Shown here: in pieces, positions 5,311 to 46,256 of the stretch
Layout: every line of letters starts with the position of its first letter
Position numbering within the stretch: position 1 is the first letter of the stretch
From: a virus
Taxonomy: Duplodnaviria; Caudoviricetes
Virus record (IMG/VR): IMGVR_UViG_3300009873_000081
Span: 39,995-103,994 of that record
Direction: 5' to 3' (one strand)
Length of the DNA stretch: 64,000 nucleotides
Notes under the pieces: generated by a model
What the model was told of the DNA's origin: nothing
What the model saw: only the letters and a program-made list of their open reading frames with translations
The model's database searches: none
Position numbers and translations under genes: made by a program

Positions 5311-6814
5311 TTGAAATCTCCTTTGCTCGATTCAGTGTTTCGCCGATCATATCTTCAAAATTAAGCGGCACTGGCTCAAACAAGCTTTCCGGCGCTGCAA
5401 CCGCAGGGCTTAGATTGTAACCTGAATCTTTGGCGCGTTTTGGCCATCGTGCCATTACGTTGGATTCAAATTCCGGCTCAACCTTATACCATTTGCCCTG
5501 CCACTTTAGATCGAGCTTGGGATCAGGCGCTTGGGTTTCTGTAGCATACTCCGAAAGCATGTACTCGATCCAGGACAAGCGGACTGCATTTTCCACCTGC
5601 GGCGGGCTTTTTCTTTGTTCCAGCGCGATATTGGGATGGTCTAATGCACTGGCTTCGATAACATGGCTGCTCTTCTCGAATGCGGCAATGAATTGCGCCT
5701 CTTTTACCGGACGATAGAAAGCCACAAATTTAACGTTTTCTCCGGCCAACACACTTTCCGCTTTTTTCCAAAACGCTTCCGGTATATCGTGAGCACGGTC
5801 AAAAACAATCAGCAAATTAGTCTCGCGTTTCGGCTCGAAAAGTGTAATGTCTTTGGCAGTCAAACCCTGCGCATAGTGACTATAATTCATCTCCATGCGC
5901 GGCGCTTTGGGAGAGAGTCCAAAACGTTCTCCTCTTTGCATTCTAATCTCAGCCCAAAGCTTGTCCACAAGCAAATCTTCGGTCGGGGCCACTGCCAAAA
6001 CTACTGAAGGCACAAAGGCATCGAAGAACCAATTGATTAGAACAGCCGCAATAAAGCTTGCGCCTTGATATTGACTGCCACGAAACAAAATTCGGTTATT
6101 TTTGTTTTTGACTACTGACTGCAAAAGCTCGCTTTGCTTTAGCGTTGGCCTTCTTTTTAGAACATCTCGCATATATTTGAGCGGTAGATCACGATAGCTT
6201 TTATAATCCCGACCAGCCTCTAAAAAAGCGAAAAGCCTGAAGCGGCTTTCTGGCGGCAGGCTCTTGTCTTCAAGAAGATGCGCAGCTAAAATCCGGTAAG
6301 CTGCCTTTGCCTCTTCAGTCAACGGCAGATCAACATTTTTGATTTCCTCGAATCGGGCTTCTTCTGTTCCATCAGGTAACTCGTCTTCGTTAGCATCGTC
6401 ATCAAGCAAAGCTTCGGTACTGATACCAACGCTATCGTGGTTTGGCATTAGCAGTCCGGCAAGATAAGCTTTATGCTCTGCCGGCAACCCTTCTACCATC
6501 AACAAAAAGGCGTCTTCTTTTGACATCTCAGACTGCGGCAGACCATAAAATCGGTTGAGTAGAATGTTGGCAGCAGCTACGCATTGACGATTTTCGGTAT
6601 TAGTCGCAACGTCATAAAGCGCGTCAATGACTCGCTTCAAGCGCGACATTTTTGATTTATACCTGTGGTCGGGCCTCTGCATATAAGCCCGACCAAACTC
6701 TGCCAAGCCAAAACCAATTTTGGAGCTTTTGTTATCTCCCGGATACCATTTATTTAAAAAATGATCAGCCGTTTTTGGCGCGGTATAAATTTTACCTGTT
6801 TCATAGTCGCTCAT
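5303..6814 (-). CDS. TerS-like N-terminus fused to a degenerate terminase-type ATPase domain
   Basis: N-terminal helical AAANILLNRFYGLP segment; C-terminal PTLKQ, RGSQYQGASF (decayed Walker A), VAPT, LLIVFDRA (decayed Walker B), AFYRP. Confidence 0.6.
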   Translation of the reverse strand: MSDYETGKIYTAPKTADHFLNKWYPGDNKSSKIGFGLAEFGRAYMQRPDHRYKSKMSRLKRVIDALYDVATNTENRQCVAAANILLNRFYGLPQSEMSKEDAFLLMVEGLPAEHKAYLAGLLMPNHDSVGISTEALLDDDANEDELPDGTEEARFEEIKNVDLPLTEEAKAAYRILAAHLLEDKSLPPESRFRLFAFLEAGRDYKSYRDLPLKYMRDVLKRRPTLKQSELLQSVVKNKNNRILFRGSQYQGASFIAAVLINWFFDAFVPSVVLAVAPTEDLLVDKLWAEIRMQRGERFGLSPKAPRMEMNYSHYAQGLTAKDITLFEPKRETNLLIVFDRAHDIPEAFWKKAESVLAGENVKFVAFYRPVKEAQFIAAFEKSSHVIEASALDHPNIALEQRKSPPQVENAVRLSWIEYMLSEYATETQAPDPKLDLKWQGKWYKVEPEFESNVMARWPKRAKDSGYNLSPAVAAPESLFEPVPLNFEDMIGETLNRAKEISNG

Positions 6815-39612: not shown

Positions 39613-40233
39613 ATGGAAACGACAAAACCAAATTTCGCTAATGGCCTGGTTATCGCTTATGTGACGAGCTTTGAGTTCGGACTGCCACACTTGGCTGAAG
39701 TAAAGATCAAATCTGAAACAGACGCATCCTATCTTGGCGTAGAAATGCTCCAAGACGGGCTGTGCAATCTTGGCCTCTTTTACCGAGTATCAAAACGCTT
39801 GTCTAAAAACGATCGGCATGCAAAGGTTTTTTCAACTGCTAAAGCTGCGCTTGATTATCTTTATGGACAAACGCTGGAAGTTGCAAAAGCAGCCGACGAA
39901 CAAATGCAGCTTGTTAAGCTTGCAATGGAGCAAGCTAAAAATTTGTAAGGATGTGCAGGAATGAACAAAGCGTCAATCAAATCAAAAGATATTTATTTTG
40001 CAATTATTGGCAATCATACTAAAGAAGTAACCGGTGTTTGCACAGGTGAATCCTTGCTTGATGTGTGCAAGGAGGATCATTGTCCGGATTTTGTCGAGAT
40101 TACTAAAGAGCAGTTTGATGATTTTGGTGACAATGGTATTGTGCTATCAGAAAATTTGAAAAGGTATACATCTAAAATTGTAATGAGAGTTAAATTGACA
40201 CCGATACGAGCAAGTCGCCCAAAGCATACGTGA
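39613..40233 (+). other. Two hypothetical CDSs (39613-39948, 39961-40233)
   Basis: Follow the promoter at 39578. Confidence 0.55.
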
Positions 40234-40268
40234 TTGCCAAAGCAAGAGAAACCAAAAGGAGAATTAAA

Positions 40269-40964
40269 ATGTTGACCAAAGACGACTTTATTTTTATCGA
40301 GGGCGGCACTTTTCAAATGGGCAGCCCTGAAACCGAGATTGATCGCTTTAGTGACGAGACTTTGCACCAAGTCACGGTTGCCGATTTTTACCTCGGCAAA
40401 ACGCCCGTCACCCAAAAACAATGGCGCGAGATCATGGGCGGCAATCCCTCCCATTTTAAAAATTGCGATGATTGCCCGGTTGAAACCGTAAGCTGGTACG
40501 AGGCGCAGGCCTTCATTGATAAGCTGAATACAAAAACCGGCATGAAATTCCGCTTGCCGACTGAAGCCGAATGGGAATACGCCGCGCGTGGCGGGCGTAA
40601 ATCTACCGCCTCAAATTTGTATGCCGGCAGCAACAATTTGGATGAAGTGGGATGGTATGATAAAAATTCAAACGGCAAGACTCATCCGGTTGCCGCAAAA
40701 AAGCCGAATGAATTGGGCCTGTACGACATGAGCAGCAATGTTTATGAGTGGTGTCAGGATTGGTATGACGAAAAATATTATGGTGAATGCCAAAAGAAAG
40801 GAACGGTGGAAAATCCTACGGGGCCGGAAAGCGGTTCGCGCCGGGTGGTGCGCGGCGGCAGTTGGTACTACGACGCGCGGTATTGCCGCTCCGCTTATCG
40901 CAACAGGATCAATCCTGCCTACTGCGGCGTCAACATTGGCTTCCGCCTGGTGTTCGTCCCGTAG
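40269..40964 (+). CDS. Formylglycine-generating enzyme (FGE-sulfatase, C-type lectin fold) domain protein
   Basis: GGTFQMGS, PVTQ, RLPTEAEWEYAARGG, PNELGLYDM, RVVRGGSW, IGFRL. Confidence 0.93.
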   Translation: MLTKDDFIFIEGGTFQMGSPETEIDRFSDETLHQVTVADFYLGKTPVTQKQWREIMGGNPSHFKNCDDCPVETVSWYEAQAFIDKLNTKTGMKFRLPTEAEWEYAARGGRKSTASNLYAGSNNLDEVGWYDKNSNGKTHPVAAKKPNELGLYDMSSNVYEWCQDWYDEKYYGECQKKGTVENPTGPESGSRRVVRGGSWYYDARYCRSAYRNRINPAYCGVNIGFRLVFVP

Positions 40965-41389: not shown

Positions 41390-42916
41390 GTGGATAATCT
41401 CAACACACTGCCTGAGCAAACCGATCAGCAACGTCTTGTCGCTTACAAGGCGATCATAGCCGCCTGCACACATACTTTCAGTAAAAACAAGCTGCAAGTA
41501 GACAAGATGAAAGACGCGCTCAGGGCTTTTTATCCGCTGGCTAAGACCGATCCGCTCTTTGCTTGCAAGTTAGCAGCTTGGAGCGCTTCGGACAAGAATG
41601 AGTCACGTGATCTGAAGCTGATTAGTATTTACACGAATAGCCTGTCAGACGCCGATGGAAGTTTATTCACTATTGGCGGTACGATCCGTAAGCCCAACTT
41701 ACGGCAGGTCTCGGCAGCGCTCTTATCGAGCTTGAATCCCAAAGAACTCTTTCGCTTGGCTTATCTTCGTAAGCTCAAGTGGTCGCCCAACGGCCAGATC
41801 GAAGCGCAGCATTTTCCCAACAGCTTGCGGACAGCGATCCGGCAATATTTGGAGTCGTTGCCTGCCTCGGCACTTAAAGCTCATGTTAAAGCCGGCTTCT
41901 CGCGGCATTTGATCTCGACGTTTCGATTGGTTCATGCACAGCCTACAGCACAACAAGCTATAATCTTGCGCTGGCAACAGCAGGAAAAACGCGGTCTGAA
42001 TGTCGAAGTTGCAGCAGCAGAGAATCCGTTTAAAGGCTTGTCCGACAAGAAGATTGCCCAAAAGATCGTAAACGAAAAATTCAAGTTTCGCCAGGCGCTG
42101 TCGCTGCTCGAAAAAGAGCCAAACTTAACTGTCTTGGAAGCTTTGCTTGAAGTTGGCAGTCCGAACGAGCTTTTGGTACAAACCAGCCTGTTCGACAAGG
42201 GCGGCCTTCTGGCTGTACCTGAGCTTGCTGAGAAGTTCTATGCCAAGCTTGCTCAAGCTAAAAGCGCTGACCGTCTCGATACGATCAAATTTGAGACGAC
42301 CGAGGGGGTGAAAGAAAGACTGGCTGAGTCTCGTGCCAAGAGTCGGCAGGCTCAGTTCGGGCAGTTGGATGGTGAGCTTTGGATGGATGTTGACAAATCA
42401 GGCTCGATGAAAATTGCTATTGATCAGGCCAAAGAAAGTGCCGCTACGGTTTGCGAAATTGTCGGCGCTGAAAACTTCTTTTGGGGCTTGATCGGCTCAG
42501 GCGGTACAGTACTGACTGATAAGCCGACAACCAAAGAAAAGGCCATGTCAATTCTCTACTTGCACCAGGCCAACGATAGTAATACCGACTGCTTCGCCAA
42601 TCTGCGTGGTGCGATGCAAAAACGGAATATCAAATACTGGATGATCCTGACTGACGGTGGACATAATCTCGGCTCAACCGACTTGTCAAAGATGAAAAAA
42701 CCGGATGCGGCCATTATTGTCAAGCTTGGCAATTACACGCATGACCTGGAAGGCCACTTGCAGAAAAATAAAATTCCGTTTGCGGCGCATGATCCGAGCA
42801 TTTTGAAATCCAGCAATCTGGTTGTGCAAAGCCTCAAAGCGATTTTGAAGGGCGAGACGGCGATCATCGAAGAAATAATGTCAACAAATTTGGCGCGTTA
42901 CGGAGTCAATCTGTGA
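41390..42916 (+). CDS. Ro60/Rsr-like TROVE plus vWA protein
   Basis: Helical N-terminal region with DPLFACKLAAW...RD; MIDAS DKSGSM and ILTDG; adjacent Y-RNA-like array. Confidence 0.7.
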   Translation: MDNLNTLPEQTDQQRLVAYKAIIAACTHTFSKNKLQVDKMKDALRAFYPLAKTDPLFACKLAAWSASDKNESRDLKLISIYTNSLSDADGSLFTIGGTIRKPNLRQVSAALLSSLNPKELFRLAYLRKLKWSPNGQIEAQHFPNSLRTAIRQYLESLPASALKAHVKAGFSRHLISTFRLVHAQPTAQQAIILRWQQQEKRGLNVEVAAAENPFKGLSDKKIAQKIVNEKFKFRQALSLLEKEPNLTVLEALLEVGSPNELLVQTSLFDKGGLLAVPELAEKFYAKLAQAKSADRLDTIKFETTEGVKERLAESRAKSRQAQFGQLDGELWMDVDKSGSMKIAIDQAKESAATVCEIVGAENFFWGLIGSGGTVLTDKPTTKEKAMSILYLHQANDSNTDCFANLRGAMQKRNIKYWMILTDGGHNLGSTDLSKMKKPDAAIIVKLGNYTHDLEGHLQKNKIPFAAHDPSILKSSNLVVQSLKAILKGETAIIEEIMSTNLARYGVNL

Positions 42917-43674
42917 GCCACAGTAGAATTAAGCTTTGTCCTGTTGTAGCTGGACGAGCCTACAGCGACGAGTCAGTATTTTCTCTGAGTAAACCAGACG
43001 GCTGGCACGAAGTAGATGTGTTGAATCGAGAGTATATTCGTGCCAGCCGAATGCAGGACTTGTTGACTTACAAAGCGCCGGTCAAAGCTTACTTCTTACG
43101 TGGTCAACTGGTGCCAAAAAGCTTCGATGTTACCAAGCGTTTTGAAGTTTCGCTGAAAGAATATCTGCTTGGCAAAGACCAAACGTTTCAGGACTTCGAT
43201 GTTTTGGCTTTTTGTAAAATTCGCAACAAAGTGTTTTTAGTAAGAAAAGAAGCTTCTGACGGCGCTTTGTTCTTGCCCAAGATGAAACTGGTCAACGGCG
43301 AGAAGTTGGAAAGCGCCAAAGGGCTATCACCTGAACAAGTTTACCTTCTCGGCTGCTATGCGATGATCTTGGCCGAGCAGAAAGCCAAGTTGGAAGCTGA
43401 GAACTTGCCGAATCGAATAAAACGTGTGTTTAGCTTAACTGGTGCGAAGCTGGTTGAGTTTAAAACAGCAGCTAAAGGCTTGATCGAAATTTCGTGGCAA
43501 TATTTACAACACACATTTCTTTCAACAGTTTACGAAAAGGATTTGCGCGTTCTATCATCTGGTTTTTGTTTAGCAGGAAGTGATAGCAAACAGACTCTTG
43601 CGTCTTTGCCTTGTATAGCTAAAGAGGCTATCGAAGACGATAAGTTATATATAACTCGTCATGTAAATAGTTAG
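42913..43674 (+). CDS. E2-like conjugating enzyme candidate
   Basis: C-terminal alpha/beta domain with SSGFCLAGSD...TLASLP; sits between Ubl/Ro and JAB/E1 genes. Confidence 0.45.
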   Translation: MSHSRIKLCPVVAGRAYSDESVFSLSKPDGWHEVDVLNREYIRASRMQDLLTYKAPVKAYFLRGQLVPKSFDVTKRFEVSLKEYLLGKDQTFQDFDVLAFCKIRNKVFLVRKEASDGALFLPKMKLVNGEKLESAKGLSPEQVYLLGCYAMILAEQKAKLEAENLPNRIKRVFSLTGAKLVEFKTAAKGLIEISWQYLQHTFLSTVYEKDLRVLSSGFCLAGSDSKQTLASLPCIAKEAIEDDKLYITRHVNS

Positions 43675-43682
43675 ATAAGAAA

Positions 43683-44582
43683 ATGAAAGAAGAATGGGCA
43701 TTTATAAGAGGTTTTAAAAATAAGTACGATGTTTCTACTTTCGGTCGAGTTCGATCTATTGGGCGTATAATAACGTCTGGAAGAAGCTACAAGAATTTTA
43801 GAGCAACAAAGACATTTATAATGAAGTTGAAACTGAGAAATGACGGTTATTTGTCAGTTTCTTTATGTCGAAATGGCAGCCGTAAAAGTTATGCTGTGCA
43901 TCGTTTAGTTGCTAAAGCTTTTATTCCTAATCCGTCAAACAAATCACAAGTTAATCATAAGGATGGAGTAAGATCAAATTGTCGAGTAAATAATCTGGAA
44001 TGGTCTACTGTTTCGGAAAATCATAAACATTCCTTTGCCAAGCTAAATAGAAAGAAGCCTCAAGTTTGGCTTGGAAAAAAGGGTTTTGATAATTTTAATA
44101 GCAAAGCTGTTTTACAATTTACACTGGACAATAAGTTCGTAGCATTGCATGGTAGTGCTATGCTTGCAGCAAGTGCAGTCGGTTGTTCTTCTCATTCGCG
44201 TATTGCAAAAGTATGTCGAGACCAAAACGGAACGACATCAAGGAATCACAGATGGATATACGAGTCTGACTATTTGCAAGGTTTCGGAATAGAAGCAGAG
44301 TCGAAAAAGAAGAAGAATAAACGGTCTATTCATTATACAGGCTTTATTGCAGAACCTTTTAATAGCTTGTTTTGCTCTAAAATTTCAGCAAAGATTATAA
44401 AAAGAGGCAATCATTCTTATGCCGTGAATGAAGTTGATTGTAAGCTTTGTTTATCAAAATTAGGATCGGACAATCGCCAAACCTTAGCCAGCCTGCCAAA
44501 TGTAGTCAAGCAGGCGGTAGACGGACATAAGCTGGTTATAACTCGTCATGTTGGCGATGATAACGGAGACGATGGCGAATGA
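43683..44582 (+). CDS. NUMOD4-HNH homing endonuclease fused to a duplicated C-terminus of the upstream gene
   Basis: WAFI.GF...YDVSTFGRVRS, VHRLVAKAFIPNP...VNHKDG..N..NNLEW...EN; ends GSDNRQTLASLP...LVITRH. Confidence 0.9.
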   Translation: MKEEWAFIRGFKNKYDVSTFGRVRSIGRIITSGRSYKNFRATKTFIMKLKLRNDGYLSVSLCRNGSRKSYAVHRLVAKAFIPNPSNKSQVNHKDGVRSNCRVNNLEWSTVSENHKHSFAKLNRKKPQVWLGKKGFDNFNSKAVLQFTLDNKFVALHGSAMLAASAVGCSSHSRIAKVCRDQNGTTSRNHRWIYESDYLQGFGIEAESKKKKNKRSIHYTGFIAEPFNSLFCSKISAKIIKRGNHSYAVNEVDCKLCLSKLGSDNRQTLASLPNVVKQAVDGHKLVITRHVGDDNGDDGE

Positions 44583-44983
44583 AAGAAGTATTCCTGCTTA
44601 AATCAGCAAGAGAAGTTGTTTTTATCGACGGTACTGCAAGCTCTGTTTTAAAAAACGGAGATTTTTTTAGAATCCGAGATTTTATAAAAGAAGCTGATCG
44701 CCGGTACGGGAAAAAAGCGTACACTTTAATGTTGCATTCTCATCCCAATGGTTTTGAAAACCTGTCACAAGCCGATGTTGATACGATGATTGGCCTAAGA
44801 TTGGGACTGGACAGAAATTTCATTTGTGGTATTGTAACCGAACGGATTGTAAAATTGTTTCGAGTGAAGCTGTGGAATAAGCAAGTTTATATTCAGAATT
44901 TGGATTGGTTGGATAGAGTGGTGACTAAATTATTGCTGAGAAATCTAATCAACGAATTGAGAGACAAGTCTAACTACTTATGA
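44579..44983 (+). CDS. JAB/MPN metallopeptidase (deubiquitinase-like)
   Basis: N-terminal Glu and HSHP...LSQAD JAMM motif. Confidence 0.85.
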   Translation: MKEVFLLKSAREVVFIDGTASSVLKNGDFFRIRDFIKEADRRYGKKAYTLMLHSHPNGFENLSQADVDTMIGLRLGLDRNFICGIVTERIVKLFRVKLWNKQVYIQNLDWLDRVVTKLLLRNLINELRDKSNYL

Positions 44984-45573
44984 ACAAAACCGTAACAATT
45001 TTTGGTCTGGGTGCGATTGGCTCCAATCTTGGCTATAACTTATTCCAGGCAGAGCCACGTCTTATCATAAACGGTATTGATAAAGATATTGTCGAGCAAC
45101 GCAACCTCGGCAACCAAATCTATTCGCAGCCGTTTGTTGGCCAAAGCAAAGTCGATGCCTTTGTGGCCGAGCTTTACATGCGAACGCAGAGTATGCCGAA
45201 AGGCAAGTTTATCAAGGCCGAATTGGGCAAGGACAGATTGAGTTTAGACGGACTGTTCGTAGATGCTTTTGACAATTTCAAATCGAGAGATATTTTGCAT
45301 CAAATTGCAAAATCTCGCAATGTCGAGTCTGAAATCGTTCATCTTGGCTTTGGAGTTATCGACAAATCTTTGTTCGGCACAATCCAGTGGAATGGCAGTT
45401 TTCAAACAGGACAAACCGACGCTCCAGGGCAAGACGTATGCCAAATCCCCGATGCAACGTGGTGGATCAAGGGAGCCGTTGCGATCATGACGCTAAACGT
45501 GCTGAATTTCTTGCGCAAGGGCGAGGTAAAGAATCTGGTTATCAAACCCGATCTTTCCACCAAAAATTTATAA
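44980..45573 (+). CDS. ThiF/E1-like adenylyltransferase
   Basis: GLGAIGS, IDKDIVEQRNLGNQ, GQSKV, VDAFDN...R, Cys in QDVC. Confidence 0.9.
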   Translation: MNKTVTIFGLGAIGSNLGYNLFQAEPRLIINGIDKDIVEQRNLGNQIYSQPFVGQSKVDAFVAELYMRTQSMPKGKFIKAELGKDRLSLDGLFVDAFDNFKSRDILHQIAKSRNVESEIVHLGFGVIDKSLFGTIQWNGSFQTGQTDAPGQDVCQIPDATWWIKGAVAIMTLNVLNFLRKGEVKNLVIKPDLSTKNL

Positions 45574-45581
45574 GAAAAAGC

Positions 45582-45610
45582 TTGATTTTTAATTGTTCTT
45601 TGCTTATATT
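45582..45610 (+). promoter_or_regulatory. Promoter for the ncRNA array
   Basis: TTGATT-17-TATATT. Confidence 0.75.
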
Positions 45611-45650: not shown

Positions 45651-45780
45651 GCCAGCCACGCTGATGAAGTTTGTCTACATGGATCGCCCAATTGGTAGGG
45701 CATATCACTGTTAATGATAATGTTGCGGGTTCAAGTCCCGTTCCAAATGCAGTTTGACAATATTCGCTTGTGTGGCTGGT
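45651..45780 (+). ncRNA. Y-RNA-like unit 1, containing tRNA-Asn(GUU)-like D, anticodon and T arms
   Basis: CCAGCCAC-GCTGA...CTTGT-GTGGCTGG closing stem; GCCC/GGGC D arm, TATCA-CTGTTAA-TGATA, GCGGG-TTCAAGT-CCCGT. Confidence 0.75.
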
Positions 45781-45794
45781 TTTAGATTTGAAAA

Positions 45795-45928
45795 GCCTTT
45801 TGCGCTGATGTCAAGTTTTTACACGGACTCGAAATCCGAAGCTCTCTCCCCAAAACTGTCTCAAATGATCGGGATGGTTCTGGGGAGAGCAACAAGCAGT
45901 ACAAAAACTTTACGCTTGTGCAAAAGGC
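45795..45928 (+). ncRNA. Y-RNA-like unit 2
   Basis: GCCTTTTGC-GCTGA...CTTGT-GCAAAAGGC; CGGA-CTCGAAA-TCCG anticodon-like hairpin; long CTCCCCA/TGGGGAG hairpin. Confidence 0.7.
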
Positions 45929-45941
45929 CATCTCGAAAAAA

Positions 45942-46086
45942 AGTCCTTTCACGCTGATGCAAGTAGCCTACATGGTGCTTGGGTTCGAGTCCCAACGGAA
46001 GCTTCGGCTTTTGTAGCTCAGTTGGCAGAGCAAGTGTTTTCGGAACACTGTTAAAGTGAAAGCTATTAGCCCTTGTGTGCAGGACT
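45942..46086 (+). ncRNA. Y-RNA-like unit 3 with a circularly permuted tRNA module (YrlA-like)
   Basis: Order is T arm (TTGGG-TTCGAGT-CCCAA), acceptor-like stem capped by TTCG, then D arm (TAGCTCAGTTGGCAGAGC). Confidence 0.8.
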
Positions 46087-46095
46087 CCCCGATAT

Positions 46096-46256
46096 AAGCA
46101 GTATACGCTGATACTTCAGTTTCTACACGGATAAGTCGCCGGCCTAATAAGCCGGTTATCTTCGTTCAAATCGAAGGTTTCCCGCAAAAAGAATAGATTA
46201 AAAAACGGGAAACTTGACTAATGCAGTTTGAAACTATGTGCTTGTGTATGCTGCTT
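46096..46256 (+). ncRNA. Y-RNA-like unit 4
   Basis: AAGCAGTATAC-GCTGA...CTTGT-GTATGCTGCTT; CCGGC-CTAATAA-GCCGG; T arm CTTCG-TTCAAAT-CGAAG. Confidence 0.72.

What the first reader, a model, noticed from the sequence alone, without database searches (positions are those of the whole stretch)
45700..46160. The Y-like RNAs display 7-nt anticodon-type loops, possibly as decoys for anticodon nucleases
Seen: CUGUUAA (Asn GUU) in unit 1, CUCGAAA (Ser CGA) in unit 2, a second CUGUUAA sequence in unit 3 and CUAAUAA (Ile AAU) in unit 4. All fit the CU-NNN-AA loop consensus, but no unit has a chargeable CCA end. Inference: they could bait host tRNA-cleaving defence nucleases (PrrC/RloC/PARIS-type) or tRNA-binding enzymes and deliver them to the Ro-Ubl machinery.
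Basis: inference. Interest (0 to 1): 0.7.

Follow-up and report, generated by a model that had tools for sequence, protein, structure and literature searches.

The report
Phage Y RNAs keeping anticodon arms
Four small RNA genes beside a phage's Ro60-like ring protein are Y-RNA-type partner RNAs, and three of them copy tRNA down to a true anticodon arm. Related phages keep this arm while its three "anticodon" letters change freely, so the RNAs imitate tRNA rather than decode, and the idea that they bait tRNA-cutting defence enzymes remains untested.

Summary
Partly confirmed. Window 45651-46256 holds four tandem Y-RNA-like units behind one promoter-like site, 3' of a Ro60-fold gene and an E1/JAB set.

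- Real 7-nt loops on stems: unit 1 (CUGUUAA), unit 2 (CUCGAAA, 4-bp stem, no other tRNA feature) and unit 4 (CUAAUAA).
- Unit 3's CUGUUAA is not a loop. Its conserved anticodon-type loop is UUUCGGA (46038-46044).
- Three such CU-NNN-AA hairpins occur against 0.09 expected.

I collected 59 distinct scaffold-embedded tRNA-like units in 44 loci of this Ro-like family.
- The anticodon stem covaries at all five pairs, and 52 of 59 loops have 7 nt.
- U33, R37 and A38 are kept, but there are 26 different triplets.
- A34 is common (12/52 against 1/66 in ordinary tRNAs), and acceptor stems are mostly imperfect.

They are tRNA mimics, not decoders. Published YrlA lacks an anticodon loop, so this is a new variant of a known kind. 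Nothing supports nuclease decoys specifically: the PARIS recognition string is not enriched and no RNA-repair gene is present. Nothing excludes them either.

Earlier notes of this scan describe similar handle-tagged tRNA mimics beside phage Ro60-like proteins on other DNA.

The parts
41390..42916 (+). Ro60-like ring protein (508 aa; helical repeat ring plus vWA domain with MIDAS residues D335, S337, S339, T399, D422)
   Evidence: No Pfam TROVE hit. The AF2 model has pLDDT 88.5. Twelve of the 13 Foldseek PDB hits at E <= 0.001 are Ro60/TROVE (9kop, 9l5y, 1yvp, 2nvo; best E 4e-8; TM about 0.5). Invariant MIDAS columns are listed.
42913..43674 (+). 253-aa protein with an invariant Cys219, co-conserved with the Ro-like gene; possibly E2/UBC-like in its C-terminal half
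   Evidence: tblastn finds it in 45 of the held sequences. AF2 pLDDT 90. No Foldseek hit. VIA-align matches are weak only: residues 163-244 to the FANCL central domain (Z 5.0-5.1), Ubc9 (Z 4.7) and Tsg101 UEV (Z 4.3); residues 3-117 to the Mpa inter-domain (Z 5.8).
44579..44983 (+). 134-aa JAB/JAMM-like protein (weak)
   Evidence: No Pfam hit for the window protein. The gene in the same position in L024 and L025 carries Prok-JAB (weak).
44980..45573 (+). ThiF-type E1-like enzyme (197 aa)
   Evidence: Pfam ThiF, E 4e-9. Co-occurs with the Ro-like gene in 37 of the held sequences.
45582..45610 (+). Promoter-like site ahead of unit 1 (TTGATT, 17 nt, TATATT)
   Evidence: By eye, similar hexamers lie ahead of the arrays in L023 and L005; I did not scan those loci.
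45651..45780 (+). Unit 1: Y-type scaffold (outer stem, UGA/CUU internal loop, inner stems) carrying a tRNA-like cloverleaf in natural order
   Evidence: MFE -48.9 kcal/mol, z -3.6. Scaffold covariation. Model R1 scores 92.4 bits.
45677..45749 (+). tRNA-like module of unit 1. U8, A14, G18G19 and T loop UUCAAGU are present. The acceptor-like stem has 5 of 7 pairs (C2.A71 and A3.A70 mismatched), with no CCA.
   Evidence: Rfam tRNA 55.9 bits; ARAGORN Asn GTT; acceptor pairs counted.
45703..45719 (+). Anticodon arm of unit 1: UAUCA / CUGUUAA / UGAUA (loop 45708-45714)
   Evidence: The helix covaries at 5 of 5 pairs in 17 units.
45795..45928 (+). Unit 2: the same scaffold with a small hairpin and a long hairpin whose sequence is conserved (CUCUCCCCAA...UGGGGAGA). 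Not tRNA-like.
   Evidence: MFE -57.2 kcal/mol, z -6.7. Aligned with L002 and L023.
45824..45838 (+). Small hairpin of unit 2: CGGA / CUCGAAA / UCCG (loop 45828-45834)
   Evidence: Homologues: GGUU/AUUUGA/AACC (6-nt loop) in L002 and CGGU/CUGUUAA/ACCG in L023.
45942..46086 (+). Unit 3: scaffold carrying a circularly permuted tRNA-like module, in the order T arm, closed acceptor hairpin, D arm, anticodon-type arm
   Evidence: Rfam YrlA 28.2 bits (below the gathering score of 69) and tRNA 31 bits. Fold; alignment and covariation.
46033..46049 (+). Anticodon-type arm of unit 3: AGUGU / UUUCGGA / ACACU (loop 46038-46044)
   Evidence: The stem is CUGAU/AUCAG in L005 and CUGUU/AACAG in L025. Fifteen of 19 permuted candidates have a 5-bp stem with a 7-nt loop one nucleotide after the D arm.
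46048..46054 (+).
   Evidence: The same position reads CUCUUAA in L002 and CUCACAA in L023.
46096..46256 (+). Unit 4: scaffold carrying an anticodon-type arm, a T arm and a long hairpin, with no D arm. A U-rich tract follows, to about 46267.
   Evidence: MFE -55.5 kcal/mol, z -6.4. Aligned with L002 and L023.
46139..46155 (+). Anticodon-type arm of unit 4: CCGGC / CUAAUAA / GCCGG (loop 46144-46150)
   Evidence: Homologues: UCAGU/AUUACCC/ACUGA in L002 and UCAGU/CUUGUAA/ACUGA in L023.
46160..46176 (+). T arm of unit 4: CUUCG / UUCAAAU / CGAAG
   Evidence: It is GCGGG/UUCGAUC/CCCGC in L002 and GUAGG/UUCGAUU/CCUAC in L023.

Best explanation
The stretch is an array of four Y-RNA-like partner RNAs of a very divergent, phage-encoded Ro60-like protein.

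Each unit has the same scaffold: the paired 5' and 3' ends, an internal loop (5' UGA / 3' CUU before GUG) and a UACAYGG junction. This is the type of scaffold that Ro60 proteins dock on. Each unit also carries a different module.

Three modules are tRNA mimics joined to the scaffold at different points of the cloverleaf:
- at the acceptor stem in unit 1;
- in the variable region in unit 3;
- in place of the D arm in unit 4.

Unlike published YrlA, each of the three keeps a closed anticodon arm with a tRNA-format 7-nt loop.

Inferred mechanism. The scaffold holds the RNA on the Ro-like ring. The tRNA-shaped module, anticodon arm included, acts as a look-alike that tRNA-recognising proteins can bind or modify, which tethers such a factor to the Ro/E1/E2-like/JAB set or titrates it. 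The shape and loop format matter. The triplet is free or diversifying. The RNAs do not decode.
For: Shown here.

(1) Ro60 fold of the neighbouring 508-aa protein, with MIDAS residues invariant.

(2) Scaffold.
- Compensatory changes in the outer and inner stems across homologous arrays.
- The 5' ...AUG / 3' ...CUUG strings resemble the Rfam YrlA consensus.
- Duplexes between the flanks of scaffold-embedded modules have median -22.1 kcal/mol, against -13.0 for ordinary tRNAs of the same loci (P 3e-10).

(3) Homologous arrays after the same operon in L002, L023, L005 and L025.

(4) A covariance model built from 17 units finds 59 distinct scaffold-embedded units in 44 loci, seeds included.
- The anticodon helix is 97.6% paired, and all five pairs show changes on both sides.
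- 52 of 59 loops have 7 nt; U33 47/52; purine 37 52/52; A38 46/52.

(5) Permuted units: 15 of 19 candidates have a perfect 5-bp stem with a 7-nt loop one nucleotide after the D arm. Chance is about 0.7% per site.

(6) They are not decoders.
- Acceptor-like stems have all 7 pairs in 7 of 76 units, against 57 of 68 ordinary tRNA hits.
- A34 other than ACG occurs in 12/52, against 1/66.
- Loops of 5, 6, 8 or 9 nt occur in 7 of 59.
- One orthologue (L025) has lost the whole module and is a 65-nt bare scaffold.

Established knowledge. Y RNAs tether Ro60 to effectors, and YrlA mimics tRNA and is a substrate of tRNA enzymes (PMC4201824). YrlA lacks an anticodon loop and a free CCA end (10.1101/312249).
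Against: - No transcript, end-mapping, binding or modification data exist for these RNAs.
- Ro60 homology rests on a predicted fold (TM about 0.5); Pfam TROVE does not match.
- The Rfam YrlA model stays far below its threshold: 28 bits here and at most 32 in relatives, against 69.
- No candidate tRNA-binding partner is identified.
- The 253-aa neighbour has only weak UBC-like similarity.
- Unit 2 has no tRNA feature, so mimicry is not a property of every unit.
Confidence: 0.6

Rival explanations
1. The anticodon arms are decoys or competitive inhibitors for host tRNA-cleaving defence nucleases (PrrC, RloC, PARIS AriB, colicin-like, retron/Septu-type). Different triplets bait different nucleases, and the Ro/Ubl proteins dispose of the captured enzyme.
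For: - The loop frame is conserved while the triplet changes fast. In close pairs of units (body identity 75-91%), triplet sites differ at 8 of 12 positions against 1 of 16 frame positions.
- L007, L014 and L011 share an identical stem but have loops of 9, 6 and 7 nt.
- Arrays carry several different loops per phage.
- Non-decoding A34 loops could bind without being used.
[quoted passage not shown] GUU is the unit 1 triplet here, and UGU occurs in L023.
- A Ro60-like phage protein (Bas63 gp130) beside tRNA genes counters a defence system (10.1101/2024.10.10.617714).
Against: - Fast triplet change is also what relaxed constraint gives.
- Lys UUU, the classic PrrC and PARIS target, is rare (1 of 52).
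- The AriB string U36AAUC is not enriched (5/52 against 8/66 in ordinary tRNAs).
- No RNA-repair or anticodon-nuclease-related gene is in the contig.
- The defence countered by Bas63 gp130 (ppl) is not known to target tRNA.
- The host and its defences are unknown.
Confidence: 0.15
2. The anticodon arms are relics. Phage tRNA genes were repeatedly captured into Y scaffolds. Only the T/D elbow or the overall L-shape is used, and the anticodon arm persists without a function of its own.
For: - The Ro-like gene often lies in or beside large phage tRNA arrays.
- Triplets are diverse.
- Loop length is not strictly kept, with 7 of 59 deviating.
- A whole module can be lost (L025).
- Published YrlA works without an anticodon loop (10.1101/312249).
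Against: - All five stem pairs show compensatory changes, with 97.6% pairing, across loci whose Ro proteins are only 31-37% identical to the window's.
- U33, R37 and A38 are retained.
- The arm is kept in three different joining topologies, including unit 4, which has lost the D arm but kept the anticodon arm.
- CUAUUAA recurs on nine unrelated stems.
Confidence: 0.15
3. Unit 1 (and relatives) is a working tRNA gene. RNase P and 3' processing release a tRNA-Asn(GUU) from a Y-like precursor duplex, CCA is added, and it decodes AAC and AAU for the phage.
For: - Rfam tRNA 55.9 bits and an ARAGORN call.
- The tertiary-pair nucleotides are present.
- CCA is encoded in 19 of 59 relatives.
- It is the only cloverleaf-order tRNA-model hit in the 104-kb contig.
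Against: - Two adjacent mismatches in the acceptor stem here. Across the family, only 7 of 76 acceptor-like stems have all 7 pairs, against 57 of 68 ordinary tRNA hits.
- A34 triplets that bacterial decoders avoid: 12/52 against 1/66.
- Loops of 5, 6, 8 or 9 nt.
- The triplet differs between orthologues (GUU, CAU, AAC) and one orthologue lacks the module.
- The constant Y-type scaffold is shared with the non-tRNA unit 2.
Confidence: 0.07

Closest known systems
YrlA (Y RNA-like A; Rfam RF02553; Salmonella, Mycobacterium, mycobacteriophages; Chen et al. 2014, PMC4201824; Wang et al. 2018, 10.1101/312249)
   Same: - Encoded next to a Ro60-type gene.
- The 5' and 3' ends form the stem with an internal loop (5' ..AUG.., 3' ..CUUG..).
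- Unit 3 has the permuted order T arm, closed acceptor hairpin, D arm, with the conserved tRNA tertiary nucleotides and no free CCA.
   Different: - The Rfam model scores 28 bits against a gathering score of 69.
- In YrlA the anticodon stem runs straight into the Ro-binding stem and there is no anticodon loop. Here the arm is closed by a 7-nt loop and the scaffold leaves from the variable region.
- Units 1 and 4 have other topologies.
- The partner protein is not recognised by Pfam TROVE.
Deinococcus radiodurans Yrn1 (Chen et al. 2014, PMC4201824, Fig. 2E as described in the text)
   Same: The tRNA-like part is in natural order, with a stem-loop in the anticodon-arm position between D-like and T elements, as in unit 1.
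   Different: Yrn1 was modelled with a 6-nt loop, an incomplete D arm and no variable arm. Unit 1 is a complete cloverleaf scoring 55.9 bits on the tRNA model, with a 7-nt loop.
Thermus phage phiLo Ro60 with Yrl1 and Yrl2 (PMC12135203; PDB 9KOP, 9L5Y)
   Same: - A phage-encoded Ro60 with several Y-like RNAs encoded beside it.
- 9KOP and 9L5Y are the top two Foldseek matches of the window's protein.
   Different: The phiLo Yrls are described as stem-bulge-stem RNAs with a CGAA motif that bind host PNPase. 'Anticodon' does not occur in the paper's text and 'tRNA' only twice. There is no E1/JAB neighbourhood.
Bas63 gp130, a Ro60-like protein upstream of tRNA genes (PhageMaP preprint, 10.1101/2024.10.10.617714)
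   Same: A structurally Ro60-like phage protein beside genes annotated as tRNAs. The authors suggest that some of these may be Y RNAs, and they report a counter-defence phenotype.
   Different: - That suggestion was not analysed at the RNA level.
- tblastn of the window's Ro-like protein against 50,697 GenBank phage records finds only one weak hit, in an uncultured 595-kb phage. It is therefore not a sequence-detectable relative of gp130.
Phage tRNA variants that escape tRNA-cleaving defences (T5 tRNA-Lys, -Thr and -Asn against PARIS AriB; 10.1101/2025.02.04.636281)
   Same: Phage-encoded tRNA-shaped RNAs whose anticodon stem-loop sequence is what counts in a conflict with host nucleases.
   Different: Those are working tRNAs that replace cleaved host tRNAs. 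The units here have imperfect acceptor stems, are embedded in a Y scaffold, often carry non-decoding loops, and show no enrichment of the AriB string.

Membership tests
Y RNA (Ro60-associated non-coding RNA) | The 5' and 3' ends pair into a long stem that contains a conserved internal loop or bulge (the Ro60 docking site) | tested here: met
   - The folds of all four units close with the terminal stem.
- Outer and inner stems covary across arrays.
- The strings CGCUGAUG and CGCUUGUG are repeated in the units and resemble the YrlA consensus.
Y RNA (Ro60-associated non-coding RNA) | Encoded next to a Ro60 orthologue | tested here: met
   The Ro60 fold comes from AF2 plus Foldseek. Units lie within a few kb of the Ro-like gene in 44 loci. 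Pfam TROVE itself does not match.
Y RNA (Ro60-associated non-coding RNA) | Physically bound by Ro60 | not testable with these tools
   Needs RIP or EMSA.
YrlA (Rfam RF02553) | Reaches the family's gathering score (69 bits) | tested here: not met
   Unit 3 scores 28.2 bits. The best score in eight related loci is 32.2 bits.
YrlA (Rfam RF02553) | Permuted tRNA-like domain: T arm, closed acceptor hairpin, D arm | tested here: met
   Unit 3, and 16 of the 19 permuted candidates in relatives.
YrlA (Rfam RF02553) | The anticodon stem is continuous with the Ro-binding stem, with no anticodon loop (10.1101/312249) | tested here: not met
   A closed 5-bp arm with a 7-nt loop follows the D arm in 15 of 19 candidates, and its stem covaries.
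tRNA (Rfam RF00005) | Cloverleaf reaching the gathering score (29 bits), with a 7-nt anticodon loop, U33 and purine 37 | tested here: met
   Unit 1 scores 55.9 bits and unit 3 scores 31 bits.
tRNA (Rfam RF00005) | A 7-bp acceptor stem ending in a free discriminator plus CCA | tested here: not met
   Unit 1 has 5 of 7 pairs, no CCA, and both strands continue into the scaffold. Across the family, 7 of 76 units have all 7 pairs, against 57 of 68 ordinary tRNA hits.
tRNA (Rfam RF00005) | Aminoacylated and used in decoding | not testable with these tools
   Indirect evidence against: A34 triplets and odd loop lengths.
Anticodon-nuclease decoy or counter-defence tRNA | Carries the recognition sequence of a known tRNA-targeting nuclease more often than ordinary tRNAs do | tested here: inconclusive
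   Only one nuclease could be checked. AriB's U36AAUC occurs in 5/52 units and 8/66 ordinary tRNAs. Lys UUU is 1 of 52. Host nucleases are unknown.
Anticodon-nuclease decoy or counter-defence tRNA | Binds or inhibits the nuclease, or rescues infection on defended hosts | not testable with these tools
   Needs biochemistry and plating assays.

The most novel reading that the evidence does not exclude
A widespread, uncultured-phage system consists of a divergent Ro60-like ring, an E1, an E2-like protein and a JAB peptidase. It uses arrays of Y-scaffolded complete tRNA mimics whose anticodon triplets diversify on a fixed loop frame. The arrays act as a bait library that captures host tRNA-targeting immune nucleases, or other anticodon-reading enzymes, and hands them to the protein set for neutralisation. 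That would be a new RNA-guided counter-defence principle.
Probability: 0.12. Interest if true: 0.85.

Novelty: new variant of a known kind. Interest (0 to 1): 0.55.

Why it matters
Bacterial Y RNAs are known to mimic tRNA, but what the mimic is for is still open, and the described class (YrlA) lacks the anticodon loop.

Here a large, unannotated phage family of Ro60-like proteins comes with Y RNAs that keep the entire tRNA, anticodon arm included, in three different joining topologies. The loop frame is fixed and the triplets are variable.

This matters for three reasons:
- It gives a concrete handle on which tRNA-reading proteins Y RNAs engage: swap or delete the arm, then pull down partners.
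- It shows that tRNA finders will mis-annotate such units as tRNA-Asn, -Met and so on in phage genomes.
- It ties Ro/Y biology to the current phage-host conflict over tRNAs and to an E1/JAB set.

Tried and rejected
- Direct DNA search of the array against GenBank phages found nothing.
- Single-protein scans of viral contigs with the Ro-like and E1 proteins found nothing. An alignment-based scan was needed.
- Pfam and PHROGs give no name to the 508-, 253-, 134- or 100-aa proteins. Sequence search of the PDB with the 508-aa protein was empty.
- My first regex/stem scanner for scaffolds had a register error and missed the known units, so I discarded it.
- RNAalifold on the four-sequence and five-sequence alignments did not draw the anticodon arm of unit 1 and mis-registered that of L005 and L025. 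I set the structure by hand and tested it by pair counts and by a non-circular positional test.
- My hand-set columns for the scaffold helices of A4 were off register and were left out of model R1. Scaffold support therefore rests.
- The idea that the E1/Ubl genes mark a tRNA-thiolation relay (TtuA/B/C-like) was considered. The 253-aa protein shows no PP-loop ATPase match by Foldseek or VIA-align, and U34 is not conserved (20 of 52). It is not supported, though absence of a match does not exclude it.
- PARIS-type mimicry was checked through the U36AAUC string and showed no enrichment.
- RtcB is absent from the contig.
- I sent no complex prediction, because no protein-protein claim is made.
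Full report
**What is at the coordinates**

The window is the 3' 64 kb of a 104-kb IMG/VR phage contig. Between 45651 and 46256 on the + strand lie four tandem units of 130-160 nt. They share the strings CGCUGAUG near the 5' end and CGCUUGUG near the 3' end.

Each unit folds with its two ends paired into a long stem interrupted by an internal loop. The fold z-scores are -3.6, -6.7, -2.2 and -6.4. A promoter-like site (TTGATT, 17 nt, TATATT) lies at 45582-45610, and a U-rich tract follows unit 4.

Rfam gives only two kinds of hit. The tRNA model matches at 45677-45749 (55.9 bits) and at 46007-46064 (31 bits). YrlA matches at 45950-46061 with 28.2 bits, far below its gathering score of 69. ARAGORN calls the first match tRNA-Asn(GTT). 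These two are the only tRNA-model hits in the whole contig.

**The observation**

- Unit 1: UAUCA/CUGUUAA/UGAUA, the anticodon arm of a full cloverleaf.
- Unit 2: CGGA/CUCGAAA/UCCG. The stem has four pairs and there is no other tRNA feature.
- Unit 4: CCGGC/CUAAUAA/GCCGG, followed four nucleotides later by a T arm, CUUCG/UUCAAAU/CGAAG.

The 'second CUGUUAA' of unit 3 (46048-46054) is not a loop. Its first two bases end the stem AGUGU/ACACU, whose 7-nt loop is UUUCGGA (46038-46044). The rest is linker.

Hairpins with a CUNNNAA loop and at least four stem pairs occur three times in the array, against 0.09 expected from the rest of the window.

**Neighbourhood**

The 508-aa ORF at 41390-42916 has no Pfam, PHROG or PDB-sequence match. 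Its AlphaFold model (pLDDT 88.5) matches Ro60/TROVE structures in 12 of the 13 Foldseek hits at E <= 0.001. The top two are Thermus phage phiLo Ro60 (E 4e-8, TM about 0.5). The MIDAS residues of the vWA domain are invariant in 35 homologues.

Downstream lie four genes:
- a 253-aa protein with an invariant cysteine and only weak UBC/RWD-like similarity;
- an inserted HNH endonuclease;
- a JAB-like protein, so named from a weak Pfam hit in orthologues;
- a ThiF-type E1.

The Ro-like, 253-aa and E1 genes co-occur across the family. No RtcB is present in the contig, and none of the window ORFs scanned with Pfam is an RNA ligase or kinase.

**Homologous arrays**

Contigs encoding Ro-like proteins 52-66% identical to the window's carry arrays in the same place after the E1 gene.
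- L002 has the same four unit types in the same order.
- L023 has the four types in another order.
- L005 and L025 have two units.

Scaffold stems show compensatory changes.

| Unit type | Window | L002 | L023 | L005 | L025 |
|---|---|---|---|---|---|
| Unit 1 type | CUGUUAA | CUCAUAA | CUGUUAA | CUAACAU by hand; CUAACA (6 nt) in the model alignment | whole tRNA-like module absent (65-nt bare scaffold) |
| Unit 3 type | UUUCGGA | UUUAGGA | UUUAGGG | CUUCGGA | UUUAGGG |
| Unit 4 type | CUAAUAA | AUUACCC | CUUGUAA | none | none |
| Unit 2 hairpin | CUCGAAA | AUUUGA (6 nt) | CUGUUAA | none | none |

For the unit 3 type, the stems covary: AGUGU/ACACU in the window, L002 and L023, CUGAU/AUCAG in L005 and CUGUU/AACAG in L025.

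**The wider family**

Alignment-based scans gave 17 viral and 80 metagenome loci of the Ro-like family, mostly 31-37% identical to the window's protein. ARAGORN and inspection showed tRNA-like modules embedded in the same kind of scaffold next to the gene. The scaffold has an outer stem, an inner stem, a UUACAAGC junction and an ACUUG string on the 3' strand.

A 17-sequence alignment (A4) supports the D, anticodon and T helices.
- 96.3% of cells are paired, against 67.2% in shuffles.
- The covariation score is 0.784, against 0.228 in shuffles (0 of 500 shuffles reach it).
- All five anticodon-stem pairs change on both sides.

The covariance model R1 found 163 hits in 99 sources. Full-length, scaffold-bearing hits amount to 59 distinct units in 44 loci, the 17 seeds included. 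Ordinary tRNAs match only the core of the model.

Among these 59 units:
- loop length is 7 nt in 52, and 5, 6, 8 or 9 nt in 7;
- position 32 is a pyrimidine in 47 of 52, U33 in 47 of 52, purine 37 in 52 of 52, A38 in 46 of 52;
- CU-NNN-AA fits 29 of 52;
- there are 26 different triplets (AUU 9, CAU 5, GUU 4, UUG 4, UAA 3);
- CCA follows the acceptor-like stem in 19 of 59.

For the permuted type I used a test that does not select on the arm. Of 19 candidates defined only by junction, T arm, closed acceptor hairpin and D arm, 15 have a perfect 5-bp stem with a 7-nt loop starting one nucleotide after the D arm. One more has a 6-nt loop. Chance is about 0.7% per site.

**Not decoding tRNAs**

- Acceptor-like stems have all seven pairs in only 7 of 76 scaffold units, against 57 of 68 ordinary tRNA hits in the same loci. 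Unit 1 has two adjacent mismatches.
- A34 triplets other than ACG, which bacterial decoders avoid, occur in 12 of 52 units against 1 of 66.
- The 40-nt flanks of scaffold units form far stronger duplexes than those of ordinary tRNAs (median -22.1 against -13.0 kcal/mol, P 3e-10).

**How the triplet behaves**

In pairs of units whose bodies are 75-91% identical, triplet positions differ at 8 of 12 sites, while the four frame positions differ at 1 of 16. This rests on only four pairs.

L007, L014 and L011 share the identical stem UCAGC/GCUGA but have loops of 9, 6 and 7 nt. So the frame is kept and the triplet is free or diversifying. These data cannot tell relaxed constraint from positive selection.

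The triplets are not simply random either. CUAUUAA recurs nine times on unrelated stems.

**The decoy idea**

GUU and UGU do occur in the close arrays, and L002 unit 1 reads UAAUCA at positions 36-41. Across the family, however, U36AAUC is no commoner than in ordinary tRNAs (5/52 against 8/66), and UUU is rare.

The decoy reading is therefore neither supported nor excluded. The host is unknown.

**Comparison with what is known**

- tRNA mimicry by bacterial and phage Y RNAs is established (PMC4201824). The solved YrlA domain lacks the anticodon loop and a free CCA end, and its anticodon stem runs into the Ro-binding stem (10.1101/312249).
- D. radiodurans Yrn1 was modelled with an anticodon-like arm carrying a 6-nt loop.
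- Phage phiLo Ro60 binds two stem-bulge-stem Yrls and host PNPase (PMC12135203).
- The PhageMaP preprint notes a Ro60-like Bas63 protein upstream of tRNA genes that 'are possibly Y RNAs', and reports that it counters the ppl defence.

The units here differ in several ways. They keep complete anticodon arms. They attach the scaffold at three different points of the cloverleaf. They come in arrays. They partner a Ro-like lineage that Pfam does not recognise, and that has only one weak match among 50,697 GenBank phage records. I class this as a new variant of a known kind.

Earlier notes of this scan describe 'handle-tagged' tRNA mimics beside phage Ro60-like proteins in other genomes, with a handle CUUACAGCAA close to the UUACAAGC junction seen here. 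I treat these as leads, not evidence.

**Verdict**

Three loops are right, one is mis-assigned, and the true unit 3 loop is UUUCGGA.

The best explanation is an array of Y-type partner RNAs of a phage Ro60-like protein whose tRNA-mimic modules retain a selected anticodon arm. The shape and loop frame matter and the triplet does not, so a role as bait or tether for tRNA-recognising proteins is the most likely one. That role is inferred, not shown.

The anticodon-nuclease decoy is a live but unsupported special case.

Noticed in passing
window 43683-44582: An HNH endonuclease gene (NUMOD4 + HNH_3) sits between the 253-aa gene and the JAB-like gene. The orthologous operons in L002, L005, L023 and L025 run straight from the 251-258-aa gene to the JAB-like gene. 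It is therefore an insertion in this phage.
   Followed up: partly
L025:3695-3759 versus L005:9834-9991: Two closely related arrays differ by the presence or absence of the whole tRNA-like module in their first unit. L025 has a 65-nt bare scaffold, which is a natural minimal Y-like RNA.
   Followed up: partly
L010:5849, L052:1519, L053:6714 and 6877, L062:5827, L074:5805: In permuted units of relatives, the loop of the closed acceptor hairpin begins with N-CCA directly after the acceptor 3' strand. The mimic thus keeps an internal copy of the tRNA 3' end.
   Followed up: no
window 45840-45895; L002:10552-10604; L023 about 5375-5425: Unit 2 carries a long hairpin whose stem sequence is almost invariant (CUCUCCCCAA ... 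UGGGGAGA) in three arrays. That points to a sequence-specific partner different from that of the tRNA-like units.
   Followed up: no
L026:4283-4780 (same as L027, L028): In a relative with a 50%-identical Ro-like gene, that gene is followed directly by four ARAGORN-called tRNAs (Leu-UAG, Leu-UAA, Cys-GCA, Tyr-GUA). The 253-aa homologue follows them. I did not check whether these have Y scaffolds.
   Followed up: no
all loci: The loop CUAUUAA (anticodon AUU, not used by ordinary bacterial tRNAs) recurs in nine units from different loci on unrelated stems. No explanation was found.
   Followed up: partly
window 42913-43674: The 253-aa protein is predicted confidently (pLDDT 90) but has no clear structural relative. 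Its N-terminal beta domain resembles the Mpa inter-domain (Z 5.8), and its C-terminal alpha/beta domain with invariant Cys219 weakly resembles UBC/RWD/UEV folds (Z 4.3-5.1).
   Followed up: partly
window 40230-40964: An FGE-sulfatase (formylglycine-generating enzyme-like) domain protein (Pfam E 6e-51) is encoded just upstream of the Ro operon in a phage genome.
   Followed up: no
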